Shown here in pieces: positions 1 through 50,707 of a DNA stretch of 64,000 nt. The stretch comes from Oscillospiraceae bacterium (GTDB lineage: Bacteria > Bacillota > Clostridia > Oscillospirales > CAG-272). The notes below the pieces were generated by a model that was not told the origin of the DNA, searched no databases, and saw only the letters and a program-made list of their open reading frames with translations. The translations under genes were made by a program, and so were the position numbers. The first letter of the stretch is position 1, and each line of letters begins with the position of its first letter. The stretch spans positions 2,883-66,882 of the forward strand of contig SVRJ01000007.1 of assembly GCA_015064885.1 (NCBI GenBank), read 5' to 3'.

Positions 1-457
1 AGATATACATGCGTCTTTCCGAAAGAGCTCTTACGTATTGATCTATGCGTTCACCGATCTCCTTGAGTATATATTCCTCCTGAACATCATGCTCGTCAAT
101 GAGAATGTTTTCAAAGTCGGATAGGGGATCAATAATATCAGGCGGGATTCGTTTCTTTCTTGTTTTCTGTCTAAAGCGGTCGGTTGCTATATTGCGCATT
201 ATTCTTGTAAGAAAGGCACGCAGAATCGCAGGTCTCTCGGGAGGCATTGAGTTCCAAGCGGCAAGATACGTGTCGTTCAGGCATTCCTCACTGTCAAGAT
301 TGCTGTGAACTATGCGTTCAGCTACGGAAAAAAGATATTTTCCGTATTTTATATCTGTTTGCTTTATTGCGTCCTCGCTCCGTGCAAAATAAAGATCTAT
401 TATTTCTTTGTCGCAAAGCTCGGAGACAATATTGCTTTTATGACTGTGACGCGACAC
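1..457 (-). CDS. ECF-type RNA polymerase sigma factor, 3' end outside window (paralogue of 2309..2902)
   Basis: Not in ORF track because it runs off the edge. Manual translation from GTG at 457 (RBS GGAGG 466-470): MSRHSHKSNIVSELCDKEIIDLYFARSEDAIKQTDIKYGKYL...EECLNDTYLAAWNSMPPERPAILRAFLTRIMRN...SERRMYI, colinear with the 197-aa sigma. Confidence 0.9.
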   Translation of the reverse strand, partial: MSRHSHKSNIVSELCDKEIIDLYFARSEDAIKQTDIKYGKYLFSVAERIVHSNLDSEECLNDTYLAAWNSMPPERPAILRAFLTRIMRNIATDRFRQKTRKKRIPPDIIDPLSDFENILIDEHDVQEEYILKEIGERIDQYVRALSERRMYI

Positions 458-539
458 CGACTGCACCTCCCTTGCCAAGAATTCTCCTCATAAATATAAG
501 TAGTCAAAACGTCCGGGATACGTAATACTTTTTAAAAAA

Positions 540-568
540 ATTATATCATAAAGTATGACTTTTGTCAA
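540..568 (-). promoter_or_regulatory. sigmaA-type promoter for the edge ECF sigma gene
   Basis: Minus strand TTGACA-17 nt-TATAAT with TG extension. Confidence 0.75.
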
Positions 569-580
569 GAAAATAAATAT

Positions 581-608
581 TCCCCACAAAGATTTTTCAG
601 TGTGGGGA
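581..608 (-). terminator. Probable intrinsic terminator after the anti-sigma/SBP fusion gene
   Basis: TCCCCACA...TGTGGGGA inverted repeat just after the stop at 618, followed by an A/T-rich tract. Confidence 0.55.
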
Positions 609-617
609 AAGTATACG

Positions 618-2312
618 CTATTTGGTTGGTTTGAACGATTGCGACAAGCCGTAAAAATCTTCGGAAGGTCCTTTCAAAGACTGCGAAAGTAGCGGATCGA
701 GAGATTTGGATACAGCAGCCCAGTTCTGTCTCTTTGCCGCACTGGTTGCCCAATCGTTATATAATCCGAAATTAGAGGGAAAGATAAGCATTCTGCCAAC
801 GTCAAGCGAGATAGTTCTCTTCATAACGTTAAAGCTTTCAAGATCATTTTTTCTTGCCTGAGTATTATTTTCTTCGATCTCGGTTTCCGGAAAAAGAGTG
901 TCAAAAACCGTAGGAGAGGTAGTACTCTGAGCGAAGTATCCCATCGCCTCTATTATTGCCGCTGAGATCACCTCTCTGTCATAGTCCCGCGAGGAGGAAG
1001 ATATTCCCCATTGTGTGAATGGAATACCCGGAGTGGTTATATAATTCTTTTGCTCGGTATCGTATTTCGGAATCGGTAAAAGTCCGTAACGCAAGTTCGA
1101 GCTTTCCGAAAGTAAGAACTTCTCGATATCCCGTATACGGAGTATCATAGATATGTCGTTTCCGAGTGAAAAATGCACCGCGGCAGACGAGTCGTTATAT
1201 CCCGAGTTTGATGTCATTATTTTTCCGAGAGCATCTGCTATCTCTATAGCTTTGCTTCCCGAATGGTCGGAAGAAAGCGTGATCAGCTTATCGGCAGACG
1301 GCGGACTTGAGTTTATGCTTACCATACTGAGCCCGGCGCCGAAATATACCGACTCGAGATGATACGTATATGTGCGCAGTCCGACACCGTCAGCTTCTGT
1401 TTTCTTTCCGTTGGCGTCGAGATCGTTCCAATAGCTTCCGACAAGCTTATACATCTCCTCAAGTGTCCACTTCTGTTCTTTTACAAGTGTATAAAGGCTG
1501 TCGGACGTATATCCGATATCGTTATTTTTGTCTATAAGGTCCTTGTTGAATATAAATCCAACCATAAGATACAGTGTATTTGTGGATATGTCACCGGTTA
1601 CGTAATAGGTGTTTCCGCCTATATCGGTGTCCTTTTTAATGCTTTCGGGATACCACGGATTACTTAGATTTATGTAATCGTGATAATAGTTTAGCGGCAA
1701 AAGATGTCCCTTTTGCGCAAGCAAAGCCGAGGTCCTCGAATAAAGAGCTATGACGTCGAGAGGCTCGCCTGAGGATTCGCACCGCTCTACGTATGCAAGT
1801 ATCGTAGCTTTTTTCCCCGAATCATCATCCTGAACGTTGAATGCGAGTTTAATGCCAAGAGCCTCGGAAACCTTTTTGTTCCTTTCAAAAATAGCCTCGT
1901 TTATATCATTTGAACCGATGATCTCATTTGCGGTAGCTTCAAATTCCTGATGTTCACTGTCCCAGCAGAGTATGTTTACTGATCTTCCGGAATATTTTTC
2001 GGAAAACAAGCTCATGTCAAAAAGACCTTCCTTGTTATCCGCACCCGATGAGGTAGGCGCAGAGTCGGGTGAGGATGTGCTTTCATGCGGGGCTGTTTCT
2101 GACGGTAAAAGCGAATTGCGTATGATAAAACCCGCCCCCGCAGCAATGCAGAGACAAAGGCATGCCGCCACCGTTCTTCTTATTATTGCAAGAGTCCTCT
2201 TTCGACGGCTTTCTTTTTTGTGCTTTATAATGCGCTCGTCTTCTCGTATGAATTTTTCAACTATACTTTCGTCAATGCCGTCAAATGCGTCTCGTAATTC
2301 GTCCTTTTTCAT
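618..2312 (-). CDS. Putative anti-sigma factor with an extracellular ABC solute-binding-protein domain
   Basis: ATGA overlap with the upstream ECF sigma. Short helical N-terminus (DAFDGIDESIVE), basic stretch, one TM (TVAACLCLCIAAGAGFII), S/T/P linker, then a domain colinear with SBP 49139..50707 (NILCWDSEH, YYVTGDISTN, KWTLEEMYKL, YGLLPIPKYD). Confidence 0.8.
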   Translation of the reverse strand: MKKDELRDAFDGIDESIVEKFIREDERIIKHKKESRRKRTLAIIRRTVAACLCLCIAAGAGFIIRNSLLPSETAPHESTSSPDSAPTSSGADNKEGLFDMSLFSEKYSGRSVNILCWDSEHQEFEATANEIIGSNDINEAIFERNKKVSEALGIKLAFNVQDDDSGKKATILAYVERCESSGEPLDVIALYSRTSALLAQKGHLLPLNYYHDYINLSNPWYPESIKKDTDIGGNTYYVTGDISTNTLYLMVGFIFNKDLIDKNNDIGYTSDSLYTLVKEQKWTLEEMYKLVGSYWNDLDANGKKTEADGVGLRTYTYHLESVYFGAGLSMVSINSSPPSADKLITLSSDHSGSKAIEIADALGKIMTSNSGYNDSSAAVHFSLGNDISMILRIRDIEKFLLSESSNLRYGLLPIPKYDTEQKNYITTPGIPFTQWGISSSSRDYDREVISAAIIEAMGYFAQSTTSPTVFDTLFPETEIEENNTQARKNDLESFNVMKRTISLDVGRMLIFPSNFGLYNDWATSAAKRQNWAAVSKSLDPLLSQSLKGPSEDFYGLSQSFKPTK

Positions 2313-2902
2313 ATTACAAATCCCTCACTTTCGAGCTTCTGACGTAAGCCTATTTTTATTGACGCTATTTCGTTGTATACAGTAGACCTGCTCACCCCAA
2401 GTGAGTCGGTTATTTCTTCTATAGGGCGAGAAAAATAGTATCTTGCCATAAATATATACAGCCTTCTTTCCGGGATCGATCGAAGATATTCATTTATGCA
2501 TTTGCGGATATCATTGACGTTATATTCCTCCTGAATATCCGTACCGTCGCTCAGAATATCCTCAAAATCCGAGATCGGGTCTATAAGCTCAGGAGGAACA
2601 CGCTTTTGTCTTCTCTTATGTCTAAAACATCTTGTAGCCGTTTTCCTCATTATAGCCGTCAGAAACGCCCGGAACAGTCTCGGTCTTTCGGGTGGTATGG
2701 AATTCCAGGTGGCTATGTACGTGTCGTCGAGACATTCCTCGCAGTCAAGCCTGTCGTGTACGATATAGTCGGCAACGCCGAGCAGATACTTCCCGTACTT
2801 TATGTCGGTGAATTTTATAGCATCTTCGTTTCTTTCAAAATAAAGTTCGATTATGGCTTCGTCACTTAATATTTTGTCTTTGCTTTTATGCCTGAGCTCC
2901 AT
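2309..2902 (-). CDS. ECF-type RNA polymerase sigma-70 factor
   Basis: 197 aa; region 2 (DCEECLDDTYIATW, FRAFL) and region 4 (RRLYIFMARYYFSRPIEEITDSLGVSRSTVYNEI); RBS AAGGAGG. Confidence 0.9.
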   Translation of the reverse strand: MELRHKSKDKILSDEAIIELYFERNEDAIKFTDIKYGKYLLGVADYIVHDRLDCEECLDDTYIATWNSIPPERPRLFRAFLTAIMRKTATRCFRHKRRQKRVPPELIDPISDFEDILSDGTDIQEEYNVNDIRKCINEYLRSIPERRLYIFMARYYFSRPIEEITDSLGVSRSTVYNEIASIKIGLRQKLESEGFVI

Positions 2903-3017
2903 TGCTTACCTCCTTGTGGAATTAAAAAATACCCCTCATAGATCAAAGTAGCCGTTTTTTGAAAAATGTCCATCCTTAAAAAAATTTAAAAAAAATAATC
3001 GAACAAGCACTTTTTTG

Positions 3018-4379
3018 TCATTTCGTATCTCTGGCAAGATCTTTCATCCAGTTGAAGCTGTTTATTTTGAAATAAGCTACAATGCATTTCAGTATCTGAT
3101 CGCATTTTAGACATGCAAAAACTATCCACGCAGGAGCTCCCGTATTAAGCGCGATAAGCGCGGAGGGAATTACGACGCAAAAAACAAAGATCGTGTCGTT
3201 TTTGAATACGAATCCTACGTCGCCTCCTGCCTTTACAAGTCCCGCGAGGCACGCTGCCTGATAGGACGTTCCTATTGAGGTTACCGCAAGAACGTTTATA
3301 AACTGCATAGAATATACTGCCGCATCTGCAGATATTCCCTTGTAGAGGGCGATAAATGGAGCTCTTATTGTAAATATCAGTCCACCCGTCATGATGCCAA
3401 GTAAAAGAAAAAGTATCTGTGTAGTTCTTGCATATTCTTTTATAAGCTCTGTTTTTCCTTCACCGATCGTCTTTCCGGTTATTATACCTACCGCAGATGA
3501 CATTCCGTTTATGGCGATGTATGCAAGAGAATTCATTGTGTTGGCAACGCTGACAGCGGAGATGACTTCTTCAGAGAAGCGTCCGAGTATAGCGGAGTTC
3601 GTCATGAGATTTATGCTCCATACGATGTTTCCGCTGATCACGGGAATAGAATACTTTATAAAATCACGTGTGATCACCCTGTCCGTTTTGAAGAAATCTT
3701 TTACACGCATACCGAGTCGTTTGTCAAAAAACAGCACGTACACCGTAATTATGAGACATTCGGCGACTCTTGATATAAGTGTAGCTATAGCGGCGCCTTG
3801 CAGCCCCATCGGAGAAGCTCCGAGTTTTCCGAATATCAATATATAGTTCAGTCCTACGTTTATAAACAGAGAACACAGAGAAACGTACATTCCCGTTTTT
3901 GCTATCTCAACGCTTCTCATTGCGGCGATCAGAGACTGCGTAATGCAGAAGAAAATATAAGATAGGCATACTCTCCTCAGATATGCCGATCCATCGGATA
4001 TTACCGATGCCTCCTTTGTCAGAAGCGAGATAATGGAGGAGGGAAACAGAAGACATACCACAGTCAGGATAGATCCGACCGCTACCGAAACCCTGATTCC
4101 GAATGAAACAATATTTTTTATGCTTTTTGTATCACGCTTTCCCCAATACTGTGCCGCAAGAATAAGGATGGTTGCTTCCACTCCTCCCGAGAACATCTGC
4201 AGAAAGGTCTGAAGCTGGTTCGCCATATATACTCCCGATACCGCACTGTCTCCGAGGCTGCTGACCATAACGTTATCCGCAAACGACACCGCAAATGTTA
4301 TAAGATTTTGCAGTGCGACGGGGATAGCGAGCGATAAAAGAGATCTGTAGAAGGATCTGTCTTTAGTGAAAAGTCTCAT
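3018..4379 (-). CDS. MATE family efflux transporter
   Basis: About 12 hydrophobic segments; LAIPVALQN, DNVMVSSLG, NYILIFGKLG..MGLQGAAIATLISR; start moved to ATG after GAGG. Confidence 0.9.
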   Translation of the reverse strand: MRLFTKDRSFYRSLLSLAIPVALQNLITFAVSFADNVMVSSLGDSAVSGVYMANQLQTFLQMFSGGVEATILILAAQYWGKRDTKSIKNIVSFGIRVSVAVGSILTVVCLLFPSSIISLLTKEASVISDGSAYLRRVCLSYIFFCITQSLIAAMRSVEIAKTGMYVSLCSLFINVGLNYILIFGKLGASPMGLQGAAIATLISRVAECLIITVYVLFFDKRLGMRVKDFFKTDRVITRDFIKYSIPVISGNIVWSINLMTNSAILGRFSEEVISAVSVANTMNSLAYIAINGMSSAVGIITGKTIGEGKTELIKEYARTTQILFLLLGIMTGGLIFTIRAPFIALYKGISADAAVYSMQFINVLAVTSIGTSYQAACLAGLVKAGGDVGFVFKNDTIFVFCVVIPSALIALNTGAPAWIVFACLKCDQILKCIVAYFKINSFNWMKDLARDTK

Positions 4380-4433
4380 TCCTTGTACCTCATTTTCCGA
4401 ATCTGAAAATAGTATGCGCATATATTGCGCTAT

Positions 4434-49138: not shown

Positions 49139-50707
49139 TCAGGACTTGGGGGTGGGCTTAAGTGTGTCTGTAAGCTTCCAAAAATCGTTGGAGGCAGTAA
49201 GAACGCCCTGCTCGAAAAGTCTCTTGAGCATCTGTGCCTTTGTTGTCCATTTCTGAGACTTAGCGACCGCGCTCGACCATTCGTCCGCAATACCGAAGTC
49301 AATGCTTATGACCTCTGTAAAGAAGCGTCCGATATCGAAGGATGTGGTTCTTCTTATGATCTCAAAGCTTGCTGCATCCTCGGGGAACTCCGAGTATCTA
49401 CCCTTAAAGAGTGACTCGAATATAACCTCTGTTGTCTCCTGCTGGGCAAGATAACCCATATATTCGATCACGGCTGCGGCAATGACCTCCCTGTCATAGT
49501 CAACAGTATCTGCGGAAATACCCCAAAGCGTAAGCGGGTTGCCCGCAACACACTTGTAATCCGCCTGTGCGAGATCGTACTTCGGAATGGGAAGAACACC
49601 GTATCTCATATCGTTGTTTTCTGAGTCGTGTATCTTCTGAATATCACGTACACGGGTAACTATTGAAAGGTCCTTGTCCTTTGTGAAATTCCATCCGGAA
49701 TCGCTGTCGTTGCATGCATTGTTGCTTGCAAGAAGATCACCGAGTGTGTCTGCAAGGTCTATAGACTTCTGACCTATATAATCGCTTGATATTGTGATGA
49801 GCTTTCCTGCTTCTGTTGCAGAATTGTCTACTGTAAGATACTGAAGATCCGATCCCGTATAGAACGCGTCGAAATGGTAGTTGTAGGATCTGAGTCCGAA
49901 TCCGTCCTCAGTAGACTTGACTCCGTTTTCATCCGCATCGAGCCAGTAGCTTCCGATGAGCTTGTACATTTCTTCAAGTGTCCACTTGTTTTCCTCAACG
50001 AGCTTATAGAGGCTTTCTTCGGTGTAGCCTATGTCGGGATTATCCTTGAGCACGTCCTTGTTGAATATAAAGCCGTATGTCATATAAAGAAGGTTTGTTG
50101 AAATGTCTCCGGATACGTAATACGTATTACCCTTGATGTTTGTTTCGGCAACAAGAGCATCGGGATACCATGAGTTGTTGAGATTTATGTATTCGGGGTA
50201 GTAGTTTACGGGGAGAAGGTGTCCCTTCTGAGAGAGCACCGCAGCAGTTCTGGAATATACCGCCATTATATCAAAGGGTATACCGCCGTCAGCCTGCATT
50301 TCAACGTACTTAAGAACCTCGGGAGAGAGAGAAGCGCCGTCTGTATGCTCTGTGAAAACGAGTGTAACACCGAGAGCATCCTGAAGCTTCATATTTCTCG
50401 AATAAATAGCGTCAAGTAAAGGCTCGCCGCCCGAGAGCTCGGATTTGTTTACTTCAAATTCCGGGTGCTCGCTGTCCCAGCAGAGTATGTTGACAGTTTC
50501 ACCGTTGTAGGAACTCTTGAATGCGCTAACGTCGAAAAGAACGTCCTTTTCTGAATCGTCGGGGTTGGTCGTAACGCCTGCGGGGGCGGTTGTTGTATCC
50601 GAAGGAGTTGTGACATCGTCTCCGCCCTTATCGCCGGTGCAGGCAGAAAGAACAGAGAGAAGCATTGTCAAAATGATAACAAAAGATAGAATTTTTTTGA
50701 TGTTCAT
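49139..50707 (-). CDS. Orphan ABC extracellular solute-binding lipoprotein (carbohydrate-SBP-like)
   Basis: Lipobox LSAC, T/P linker, FIFNKD, KWTLEEM, D.DENG, YGVLPIPKYD; monocistronic with no adjacent permease or ATPase. Confidence 0.85.
   Translation of the reverse strand: MNIKKILSFVIILTMLLSVLSACTGDKGGDDVTTPSDTTTAPAGVTTNPDDSEKDVLFDVSAFKSSYNGETVNILCWDSEHPEFEVNKSELSGGEPLLDAIYSRNMKLQDALGVTLVFTEHTDGASLSPEVLKYVEMQADGGIPFDIMAVYSRTAAVLSQKGHLLPVNYYPEYINLNNSWYPDALVAETNIKGNTYYVSGDISTNLLYMTYGFIFNKDVLKDNPDIGYTEESLYKLVEENKWTLEEMYKLIGSYWLDADENGVKSTEDGFGLRSYNYHFDAFYTGSDLQYLTVDNSATEAGKLITISSDYIGQKSIDLADTLGDLLASNNACNDSDSGWNFTKDKDLSIVTRVRDIQKIHDSENNDMRYGVLPIPKYDLAQADYKCVAGNPLTLWGISADTVDYDREVIAAAVIEYMGYLAQQETTEVIFESLFKGRYSEFPEDAASFEIIRRTTSFDIGRFFTEVISIDFGIADEWSSAVAKSQKWTTKAQMLKRLFEQGVLTASNDFWKLTDTLKPTPKS

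What the first reader, a model, noticed from the sequence alone, without database searches (positions are those of the whole stretch)
618..2902. ECF sigma / anti-sigma pair whose extracellular sensor is a complete ABC solute-binding protein
Seen: the 564-aa gene is translationally coupled (ATGA overlap) to an ECF sigma. It has a ~45-aa cytoplasmic N-terminus, one TM helix, an S/T/P linker and no lipoprotein signal peptide. Its remaining ~465 aa align end to end with the lipoprotein SBP at 49139..50707 (VNILCWDSEH in both; QKGHLLPLNYY/QKGHLLPVNYY; YYVTGDISTN/YYVSGDISTN; KWTLEEMYKL in both; YGLLPIPKYD/YGVLPIPKYD; DYDREVI in both). Known: clostridial SigI/RsgI anti-sigmas use CBM, GH or PA14 modules to sense polysaccharides, and SBPs usually signal in trans through histidine kinases or MCPs. 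Inference: a transporter SBP was grafted onto an anti-sigma, making a receptor that couples ligand-induced Venus-flytrap closure to sigma release. I do not know of a characterised example.
Basis: partly seen in the sequence, partly recalled or inferred. Interest (0 to 1): 0.88.

Follow-up and report, generated by a model that had tools for sequence, protein, structure and literature searches.

The report
Sigma-factor switch with sugar-binding-protein sensor
A gut Clostridia bacterium has joined a short sigma-factor-holding segment and a membrane helix to a whole solute-binding-protein fold, giving what looks like a rare, untested way of coupling nutrient sensing to gene switching.

Summary
An ECF sigma gene (2309..2902, minus strand) overlaps by ATGA a 564-aa gene (618..2312). 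That protein has about 45 cytoplasmic residues, one membrane helix and a disordered linker. Its roughly 465-aa ectodomain is 45% identical to the lipoprotein at 49139..50707.

The ectodomain model matches sugar-type ABC solute-binding proteins (Z up to 23.5). A complex model places residues 1-32 between sigma regions 2 and 4 (score 0.86; best control 0.01).

- A second sigma/fusion pair lies directly downstream, partly off the window.
- This is one of ten paralogous sigma/anti-sigma pairs in the genome. All ten share the short N-terminal module, which no Pfam or NCBIfam model matched.
- Neither the fusions nor their lipoprotein paralogues lie beside ABC permeases, so "transporter SBP" is not shown.

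The fusion arose once, inside the lipoprotein family. I found it in only three protein clusters, and in no other genome of about 600 searched. My paper searches found no description of an SBP-fold anti-sigma.

Verdict: real, and a new variant of a known kind (a modular single-pass anti-sigma). Ligand, regulon and release mechanism remain inferred.

The parts
2309..2902 (-). ECF-type sigma factor (sigma-1), 197 aa, with regions 2 and 4 only
   Evidence: ORF. Sigma70_r2 E 1.2e-7, Sigma70_r4_2 E 3.8e-6. TIGR02937 64.9 bits, above the 42.9 cut-off.
2309..2312 (-). ATGA overlap of the sigma stop and the fusion start (translational coupling)
   Evidence: The same 4-nt overlap is present in 10 of 10 paralogous sigma/partner pairs of the genome.
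2178..2312 (-). Cytoplasmic N-terminal segment (aa 1-45), the predicted sigma-binding module. Contacts fall in aa 1-32.
   Evidence: ipSAE 0.86/0.87/0.86, best control 0.01. Contacts are to sigma residues 74-90 and 110-168/190-197. The motif is shared by ten paralogues and by 2335 cluster representatives.
2118..2177 (-). Single transmembrane helix (about aa 46-65) carrying the family-invariant Ala-Ala (A49 A50)
   Evidence: helix 15-65; the invariant columns are M1, A49 and A50. The basic residues lie on the N-terminal side (read from the sequence).
2031..2117 (-). Disordered Ser/Thr/Pro-rich linker (aa 66-94)
   Evidence: pLDDT below 50 for residues 65-94. It aligns with the post-lipobox linker of the lipoprotein paralogues.
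618..2015 (-). SBP-fold ectodomain (aa about 100-564, plus the stop codon)
   Evidence: 4rk2_B Z 23.5, rmsd 3.5, 363 residues aligned; also UgpB, MalE, CbpB and YesO at Z 18.8-22.4. MBP, MalE2 and UgpB at E about 1e-12; weak SBP_bac_1, E 7.9e-4.
582..607 (-). Hairpin (CCCCACA / TGTGGGG, 12-nt loop) followed by a T-rich tail, just after the fusion stop. It looks like a terminator separating the two pairs.
   Evidence: Read directly. The scanner did not list it because its loop limit is 8.
540..568 (-). Perfect sigma-70-type promoter (TTGACA, 17 nt, TG-TATAAT) in front of sigma-2
   Evidence: 12 of 12 matches, at C26 3450..3422, which is window 568..540. Sequence.
2..478 (-). 5' part of the tandem paralogue sigma-2 (206 aa in full, 61% identical to sigma-1). 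Its ATGA-coupled 560-aa fusion-2 lies off the window at C26:1061-2743.
2934..2949 (-). 16-nt element (ACTTTGATCTATGAGG) 32 nt upstream of sigma-1. Related copies lie upstream of sigma-2 (window 486..501) and of one, possibly two, further sigma paralogues.
   Evidence: Allowing up to 3 substitutions genome-wide, the intergenic copies directly upstream of a gene are at these sigma genes. Function unknown.
49139..50707 (-). Lipoprotein paralogue of the ectodomain (522 aa, lipobox LSAC). It lies upstream of argG/argH-like genes with no permease beside it.

Best explanation
The two genes form an ECF sigma / membrane anti-sigma pair. The 564-aa protein is a type II (N-in) single-pass membrane protein.

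Its first 30 or so residues form one short helix plus the start of a long helix. They lie between sigma regions 2 and 4 and keep the sigma off RNA polymerase. This is a minimal module, class-II-like in size, not the four-helix class I domain.

Outside the cell a flexible linker carries a complete two-lobed solute-binding-protein fold. That fold was copied once from a family of roughly 500-aa lipoproteins, with the lipoprotein signal peptide replaced by the anti-sigma module and membrane helix.

Inferred mechanism: binding of a carbohydrate-type ligand changes the ectodomain from open to closed. This exposes the juxtamembrane linker to a site-1 protease. The genome's M50 site-2 protease then cuts in the membrane helix near the invariant Ala-Ala. 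The released fragment is degraded and the sigma is freed.

Supported by computation only: the gene pair, the fold, the single origin of the fusion and the predicted sigma contact.

Inferred: the ligand class, the direction of the response, the proteolytic cascade and the regulon.
For: Coupled pair. ATGA overlap. 10 of 10 paralogous sigmas have the same 4-nt overlap with a downstream gene that has the motif M-x3-[helix ..L..x.IDEKyI.EA]-basic stretch-membrane helix.

Sigma binding. The complex model scores ipSAE 0.86, 0.87 and 0.86 against a best control of 0.01. Partner pLDDT is at least 82 and the runs agree in at least 94% of contacts. That mark was reached by 58 of 80 solved complexes and 2 of 110 mismatched pairs. 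The contacts span sigma-2 (74-90) and sigma-4 (110-168, 190-197).

Fold. AF2 pLDDT 86.3, pTM 0.79. VIA Z 23.5 to 18.5 for the top 50 entries, all SBP-fold chains (family-1 sugar or glycerophosphodiester SBPs, or E. coli MBP fusions), aligned over model residues about 105-551. Foldseek probability 1.00. All 10 family-invariant residues (R144, W220, G240, D241, W282, T283, G410, P413, Q421, E455) are kept in the fusions.

Origin. The 4 fusion rows form one clade, SH-aLRT 100, nested in lipoproteins.

Proteolysis parts. An M50 protease scoring 206.6 bits is present in the genome. Ala-Ala at the cytoplasmic end of the helix is invariant in 10 of 10 paralogues. From memory, not a call: RseP/RasP cuts in RseA and RsiW leave Ala-rich ends that ClpXP recognises.

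Modularity. The same N-terminal module carries serpin, alpha-2-macroglobulin and LRR ectodomains in other proteins, as expected of a general sensor platform.
Against: - No experiment. The complex score is the model's own confidence. It was obtained with my own 10-row paralogue alignments, so the calibration holds only roughly, and ECF/anti-sigma complexes of other classes are solved, so part of the pass may be likeness.
- SBP membership by sequence is weak. Pfam gives 19.9 bits against a gathering score of 26. NCBIfam gives nothing. The family profile finds 0 solved chains at E <= 0.01.
- No permease lies beside any paralogue, so even the donor family's transport role is unproven.
- No ligand could be inferred.
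- No regulon was found. The lipoprotein paralogues have plain TTGACA-N17-TATAAT promoters and do not share the element found upstream of the sigma genes.
- The fusion was not found in the 2 other species of the genus (83% and 70% complete) or in the other genomes searched. It is therefore young or dispensable.
- RNA evidence is limited to short contigs from RNA libraries, which cannot show transcription.
Confidence: 0.66

Rival explanations
1. Transport-coupled sensing. The tethered SBP fold does not signal through ligand closure alone. It docks, loaded, on a shared ABC permease as its lipoprotein paralogues may do, and the anti-sigma reports transporter occupancy or flux.
For: The ectodomain keeps every family-invariant residue. 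The genome has CUT1-like permease pairs elsewhere: 13 BPD_transp_1 matches, with their neighbourhoods. It also has 12 orphan SBP-like genes that would have to share permeases if they transport at all.
Against: No permease is near any paralogue, so no partner can be named. The fusion branches are long (0.52-0.67 against a median end branch of 0.069), which fits a release from transporter-docking constraints. That comparison is confounded by sampling density.
Confidence: 0.14
2. The SBP fold is only a membrane-anchored uptake or binding protein. The sigma is released by a cue unrelated to ligand binding, such as envelope stress or protease attack on the linker.
For: Membrane-helix-anchored SBPs exist in Gram-positive bacteria and archaea (recalled). 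Sister anti-sigmas in the family carry protease-bait folds (serpin, alpha-2-macroglobulin), which suggests that proteolysis is the common trigger.
Against: The fusion has been kept through at least two duplications or speciations with the full fold conserved: 47-49% identity with 175 invariant columns across 5 fusion sequences. A plain anchor would not need to sit on an anti-sigma module. Lipoprotein copies for plain binding already exist.
Confidence: 0.14
3. Chimeric assembly or decaying pseudogene with no function.
For: The genome is a 77-contig draft, 91.5% complete. The fusion is rare: 3 clusters among the 36 homologues found.
Against: There are two intact tandem copies. Database clusters hold 19, 5 and 19 member sequences. 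An independent run has the whole stretch in a single contig, and 11 runs from 8 studies other than the possible sources hold at least 0.73 of the sampled words. The frames are open and the fold is predicted with confidence.
Confidence: 0.03

Closest known systems
SigI/RsgI systems of cellulolytic clostridia
   Same: A single-pass anti-sigma in a Clostridia member whose outside domain binds carbohydrate. Release is by intramembrane cleavage: RseP cuts RsgI in its membrane helix (PMC12203970, start of the abstract in the listing).
   Different: The sigma here has an ordinary region 4 (Sigma70_r4_2), not the sigmaI-C domain (PMC7826278 passage). No RsgI_N hit was found. The sensor is an SBP fold rather than a CBM, GH or PA14 module. 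PMC6056542 contains none of the six search terms I tried (solute, periplasmic, SBP, sugar-binding, ABC, sensing domain).
RsiV / sigma-V (lysozyme receptor anti-sigma)
   Same: A ligand binds directly to the anti-sigma ectodomain and triggers stepwise proteolysis (PMC4183432, title and start of the abstract in the listing).
   Different: The ectodomain fold and ligand are unrelated. Whether ligand binding triggers cleavage here is untested.
Class II anti-sigma factors (CnrY type)
   Same: A very short sigma-binding part, under 50 aa and about two helices, that touches both sigma-4 and sigma-2 (PMC7406223 passages; contacts predicted here).
   Different: I did not test sequence relatedness to CnrY. 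CnrY works with a separate sensor protein (recalled). Here the sensor is fused.
SBP and Venus-flytrap folds as sensors of other transducers (BvgS-type kinases, Bacteroides hybrid two-component sensors, SBP-dependent chemoreceptors and kinases)
   Same: The same fold is used to sense solutes for signalling. The review PMC8050422 lists chemoreceptors, sensor kinases, cyclic-di-GMP enzymes and Ser/Thr kinases as SBP-stimulated receptors (abstract).
   Different: In that review 'sigma' occurs once, only in a general list of receptor types, and no SBP-to-anti-sigma link is given. Here the output is sequestration of a sigma factor rather than phosphotransfer. The BvgS and Bacteroides examples are recalled, not read.
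Family-1 sugar ABC solute-binding proteins (MalE, UgpB, CbpB, YesO)
   Same: Two-lobed fold, Z 18.8-23.5 over 340-370 aligned residues.
   Different: Only 7-16% identity to those chains across the top 50. About 100 residues larger. No adjacent permease. Anchored by an N-terminal helix attached to an anti-sigma module.

Membership tests
ECF (group 4) sigma-70 factors | Regions 2 and 4 present, no region 3, about 200 aa | tested here: met
   Sigma70_r2 and Sigma70_r4_2, with no region-3 hit. TIGR02937 64.9 bits against a cut-off of 42.9. Length 197 aa.
ECF (group 4) sigma-70 factors | Co-transcribed cognate anti-sigma directly downstream | tested here: met
   ATGA overlap. Predicted binding 0.86 against a control of 0.01. 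This is computational only.
Class I anti-sigma domain (ASDI, zf-HC2/RskA type) | Four-helix N-terminal domain of about 100 aa, recognised by ASDI/zf-HC2 profiles | tested here: not met
   The cytoplasmic part is only about 45 aa with two helices. No Pfam hit to any anti-sigma family was found for the fusion. 0 of 10 paralogous N-termini give a significant or shared Pfam hit. The definition is from PMC7406223.
Class II anti-sigma (CnrY/NepR type) | Short (under 50 aa) two-helix peptide contacting sigma-4 and sigma-2 | tested here: inconclusive
   Size and predicted dual contact fit. Homology to CnrY was not tested.
RsgI anti-sigma-I | RsgI_N domain paired with a SigI-type sigma (sigmaI-C domain) | tested here: not met
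   No RsgI_N hit. The sigma has Sigma70_r4_2.
DUF4179 anti-sigma factors of Firmicutes | Pfam PF13786 match | tested here: not met
   1 of 10 N-termini matches, at E 0.08 only. There is none in the full fusion. The family is mentioned in PMC7826278.
ABC solute-binding proteins, family 1 (SBP_bac_1/8) | Two-lobed type II periplasmic-binding-protein fold | tested here: met
   (Z up to 23.5, 363 residues aligned)..
ABC solute-binding proteins, family 1 (SBP_bac_1/8) | Sequence match over Pfam's gathering score | tested here: not met
   19.9 bits against 26. The lipoprotein paralogue has no hit. The profile finds nothing among PDB sequences. More distant relatives do carry PF01547 (P0027; Atlas cluster with 97% PF01547).
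ABC solute-binding proteins, family 1 (SBP_bac_1/8) | Encoded with, or shown to serve, an ABC permease | tested here: not met
   0 of 12 paralogues in the genome lie beside a BPD_transp_1 gene. Service in trans cannot be tested here.
Anti-sigmas regulated by intramembrane proteolysis | Site-2 (M50) protease present; site-1 cleavage of the ectodomain or linker on signal | not testable with these tools
   An M50 protease is present and the Ala-Ala in the helix is conserved. Cleavage itself needs experiments.

The most novel reading that the evidence does not exclude
This would be the first ligand-gated ECF switch built on a Venus-flytrap fold. Closure of an SBP domain on a sugar-type ligand would license regulated proteolysis of a minimal, roughly 30-residue anti-sigma.

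It would be one member of a large modular sensor platform in Clostridia that neither Pfam nor NCBIfam matched here (at least 2335 clusters at 50% identity). In that platform the same sigma-holding module is plugged onto binding folds (SBP, LRR) and protease-bait folds (serpin, alpha-2-macroglobulin).
Probability: 0.4. Interest if true: 0.75.

Novelty: new variant of a known kind. Interest (0 to 1): 0.6.

Why it matters
How a signal outside the cell starts the destruction of a membrane anti-sigma is understood for only a few systems. An SBP ectodomain has a well-understood open-to-closed movement, and its ligands can be screened. This pair would therefore be a tractable model for ligand-triggered anti-sigma release.

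The very small sigma-binding module, together with an exchangeable sensor, could serve as a design template for synthetic ECF switches.

It also draws attention to a large family of short anti-sigma modules in gut Clostridia that has no Pfam or NCBIfam model among those searched, and to an expanded family of orphan SBP-like lipoproteins whose role is unknown.

Tried and rejected
Lipobox reading of 'VAAC'. Rejected. The Cys precedes rather than follows the hydrophobic stretch. Forty-five mostly charged residues lie before it. Ser replaces Cys in 4 of 10 paralogues.

Regulon by shared promoter. The upstream regions of the 10 sigma genes and 4 lipoprotein genes were compared. Regex and mismatch scans found a 16-nt element only in front of sigma genes and nothing linking them to the lipoprotein genes. 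No regulon can be named.

The search for related loci. P0002 in metagenome contigs and alignment A4 in genome contigs both returned pattern matches but no relative. The context of P0002 therefore stays unknown.

Word-based search with the N-terminal profile gave only 9 proteins. The full HMMER search was needed.

ESM Atlas. The nearest clusters are SBP-type lipoproteins and none is named as an anti-sigma. No structure search was possible.

Profile against PDB sequences: 0 hits.

RNA evidence. RNA-library contigs cover only 7 of 30 bins (X18) and 8 of 30 bins (X20). These are contigs, so they show neither transcription nor an operon. Uncovered parts prove nothing.

Tree. The careful search did not finish in 288 s. 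The quick IQ-TREE result is what I report, with midpoint rooting only. P0020 and P0022 were left out of alignment A1 because they are short or partial.

Family search. 188 weaker matches were not listed, so an N-terminal match among them cannot be excluded from that call alone. One search (residues 1-200 as query, 401 genomes) listed all 14 matches, and only the two in G000 start at residue 1.

Locus inspection. In 2 of 19 loci (L020, L034) my ORF filter showed a longer spurious opposite-strand ORF instead of the homologue. The other 17 all showed lipoprotein-type signals and no anti-sigma motif.

Sigma paralogue search. It gave 11 hits. I dropped the 11th (a 1077-aa ORF, E 9.3e-5) as not being an ECF-size gene.

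Paper supplements are closed and were not requested. The supplementary text and tables of PMC7826278 that describe anti-sigma architectures for each ECF group could bear on novelty.
Full report
OBSERVATION

The junction reads GTAATATGAAAAAGG, so stop and start overlap as ATGA, and a GAGGGA ribosome-binding site lies 8 nt upstream.

The upstream gene is an ECF-type sigma. It matches Sigma70_r2 and Sigma70_r4_2 and TIGR02937 above its cut-off.

The 564-aa protein aligns with the lipoprotein at 49139..50707(-) at 45% identity over 530 columns, E 1e-173.

In a 35-sequence alignment, the fusion's membrane helix sits where the lipoproteins have their signal peptide. The S/T/P-rich linker aligns with their post-lipobox linker.

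1. The truncated ORF at 2..478(-) is a second sigma, 61% identical to the first. On the contig outside the window it is ATGA-coupled to a second fusion of 560 aa, 47% identical over its full length. A hairpin with a T-rich tail (582..607) and a perfect TTGACA-17-TATAAT promoter (540..568) separate the two pairs.

2. The genome has ten paralogous ECF sigmas. I dropped an 11th phmmer hit, a 1077-aa ORF. All ten overlap by 4 nt a downstream gene with the same plan: Met, a short amphipathic helix (consensus L..x.IDEKxI.EA), a basic stretch, and one membrane helix beginning with an invariant Ala-Ala. A different outside domain follows in each.

3. A profile of these N-termini finds 2335 representatives (50%-identity clusters) at E <= 0.001. 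In all 150 rows returned the match lies at or near the protein's N-terminus, and the proteins range from 70 to 1592 aa. Ectodomains seen include BspA-type LRR, serpin and alpha-2-macroglobulin.

4. No Pfam or NCBIfam model covers the module. 0 of 10 N-termini give a shared or significant Pfam hit.

IS IT AN ANTI-SIGMA?

The complex model of sigma-1 with fusion residues 1-48 scored 0.86, 0.87 and 0.86, against 0.01 for the best of three controls. Partner pLDDT was at least 82 and the runs agreed in at least 94% of contacts. The mark was reached by 58 of 80 solved complexes and 2 of 110 mismatched pairs.

Residues 1-32 contact sigma residues 74-90 (region 2) and 110-168 plus 190-197 (region 4). 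This is the dual interface described for all anti-sigma classes (PMC7406223 passages).

The cytoplasmic part is too short for the four-helix class I domain, which averages about 100 aa. It resembles class II in size. This is model confidence obtained with my own 10-row alignments, not a measurement.

IS THE OUTSIDE DOMAIN AN SBP?

The AF2 model has pLDDT 86.3 and pTM 0.79. Without relying on Foldseek, it aligns to family-1 sugar-type SBPs at Z 23.5 (4rk2_B, rmsd 3.5, 363 residues) down to 18.5 for the fiftieth entry. All top entries are SBP-fold chains: SBPs proper or MBP fusions. Foldseek agrees.

By sequence the link is weak. SBP_bac_1 scores 19.9 bits, below the gathering score of 26. The family profile finds no solved chain. 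All ten family-invariant residues are kept in the fusions.

IS IT A TRANSPORTER SBP?

Not shown. The genome has 12 SBP-like paralogues. Its 13 BPD_transp_1 permease matches lie elsewhere, and none of the 12 paralogues has one beside it. In related genomes the homologues are likewise lone lipoproteins in 17 of the 17 loci where my listing showed the gene.

ORIGIN AND SPREAD

The four fusion rows form one clade (SH-aLRT 100) nested among lipoproteins. The tree is a quick IQ-TREE run with midpoint rooting. This points to one fusion event followed by duplication.

Among 5.8 billion proteins, the word-based search found 36 homologues. Only three clusters are full-length fusions: P0001 (98% identity), P0002 (48%) and P0003 (47%).

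In 201 genomes of the family, 94 have an SBP-like homologue, but a match starting at residue 1 was listed only in G000. In 401 genomes of the order, only G000 had one. Of the 150 best N-terminal-module representatives, only P0002 carries this ectodomain.

The locus is real. One independent run holds window 400-3100 in a single contig, and 11 runs from 8 studies other than the possible sources hold at least 0.73 of its sampled words. All are animal gut or faecal material by their records.

MECHANISM

I commit, at 0.66, to a ligand-sensing anti-sigma. The SBP fold binds a carbohydrate-type solute. The conformational change exposes the disordered juxtamembrane linker (residues 65-94) to a site-1 protease. 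The M50 protease then cuts near the invariant Ala-Ala. The fragment is degraded and the sigma is released.

Only the parts list is supported. The sequence of events is inferred by analogy with RsiV and RsgI (listing abstracts) and with RseA and RsiW (recalled).

The rivals are transporter-coupled sensing, a ligand-independent trigger, and an artefact. They are scored in their own sections.

NOVELTY

The main text of the ECF re-classification (PMC7826278) contains none of 'solute', 'SBP', 'periplasmic binding' or 'substrate-binding'. Its Firmicutes anti-sigma types, such as DUF4179, do not match here.

The review of SBPs in signalling names no anti-sigma partner. The clostridial RsgI survey has none of my six search terms (solute, periplasmic, SBP, sugar-binding, ABC, sensing domain). 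Four further full-text searches gave nothing relevant, and a fifth on anti-sigma, serpin and Clostridia gave nothing on the module family.

Supplements were closed and no domain-architecture database is at hand, so 'not in print' rests on these searches only.

SBP folds on kinases and other transducers are well known, and carbohydrate-sensing anti-sigmas are known. I therefore rate this a new variant of a known kind, with interest 0.6.

Noticed in passing
window 2..478(-) and contig C26:1061-3360 (locus L011): Tandem second sigma / SBP-fusion pair. The sigma is 61% identical and the fusion 47% identical to the first pair. It has its own perfect sigma-70-type promoter.
   Followed up: yes
G000 contigs C49, C45, C2, C14, C9, C21 (loci L012-L017): Eight further ECF sigma genes, each ATGA-coupled to a single-pass protein with the same short N-terminal module. 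Their ectodomains differ and range from about 160 to about 1270 aa. One relative carries a serpin domain and others carry BspA-type LRRs.
   Followed up: partly
protein family, not a window place: The N-terminal sigma-binding module has 2335 cluster representatives at E <= 0.001 and no Pfam or NCBIfam model. Ectodomains include alpha-2-macroglobulin (P0082, 1592 aa) and serpin (P0044). That hints at protease-sensing anti-sigmas.
   Followed up: partly
window 2934..2949(-) and 486..501(-); C49 about 18508; C14 about 44189: A 16-nt element (ACTTATAyTTATGArG-like) lies 8-32 nt upstream of three related sigma genes. A fourth copy is near the start of the C14 sigma ORF. It may be an autoregulated ECF promoter or a leader element.
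   Followed up: partly
G000 C24:3354-6959, C3:26535-31301, C27:59678-62925, C60:21463-22992, window 49139..50707: An expanded family of roughly 500-aa SBP-fold lipoproteins, often in tandem, with none beside a MalFG-type permease. The C27 pair sits next to an ABC ATPase and an ABC-2-type permease. 94 of 201 genomes of the family have homologues.
   Followed up: partly
G000 C67:64476-77966: Two MalFG-like permease pairs are each flanked by very large putative lipoproteins (1306, 1074 and 738 aa) instead of ordinary SBPs.
   Followed up: no
G000 C2, C9, C7 and C32: A GTCT(A/T)nTATAAGT motif lies about 30 nt upstream of two other sigma paralogues, of a 198-aa gene on C7, and of a 556-aa protein on C32 whose N-terminus looks sigma-like. 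It may be a shared promoter element.
   Followed up: no
window 3018..4421(-): The gene directly upstream of sigma-1 on the same strand is a 467-aa multi-pass membrane protein. It looks like a MATE-type efflux protein from the sequence, but I did not run it against a family library. No link to the sigma pair was found.
   Followed up: no
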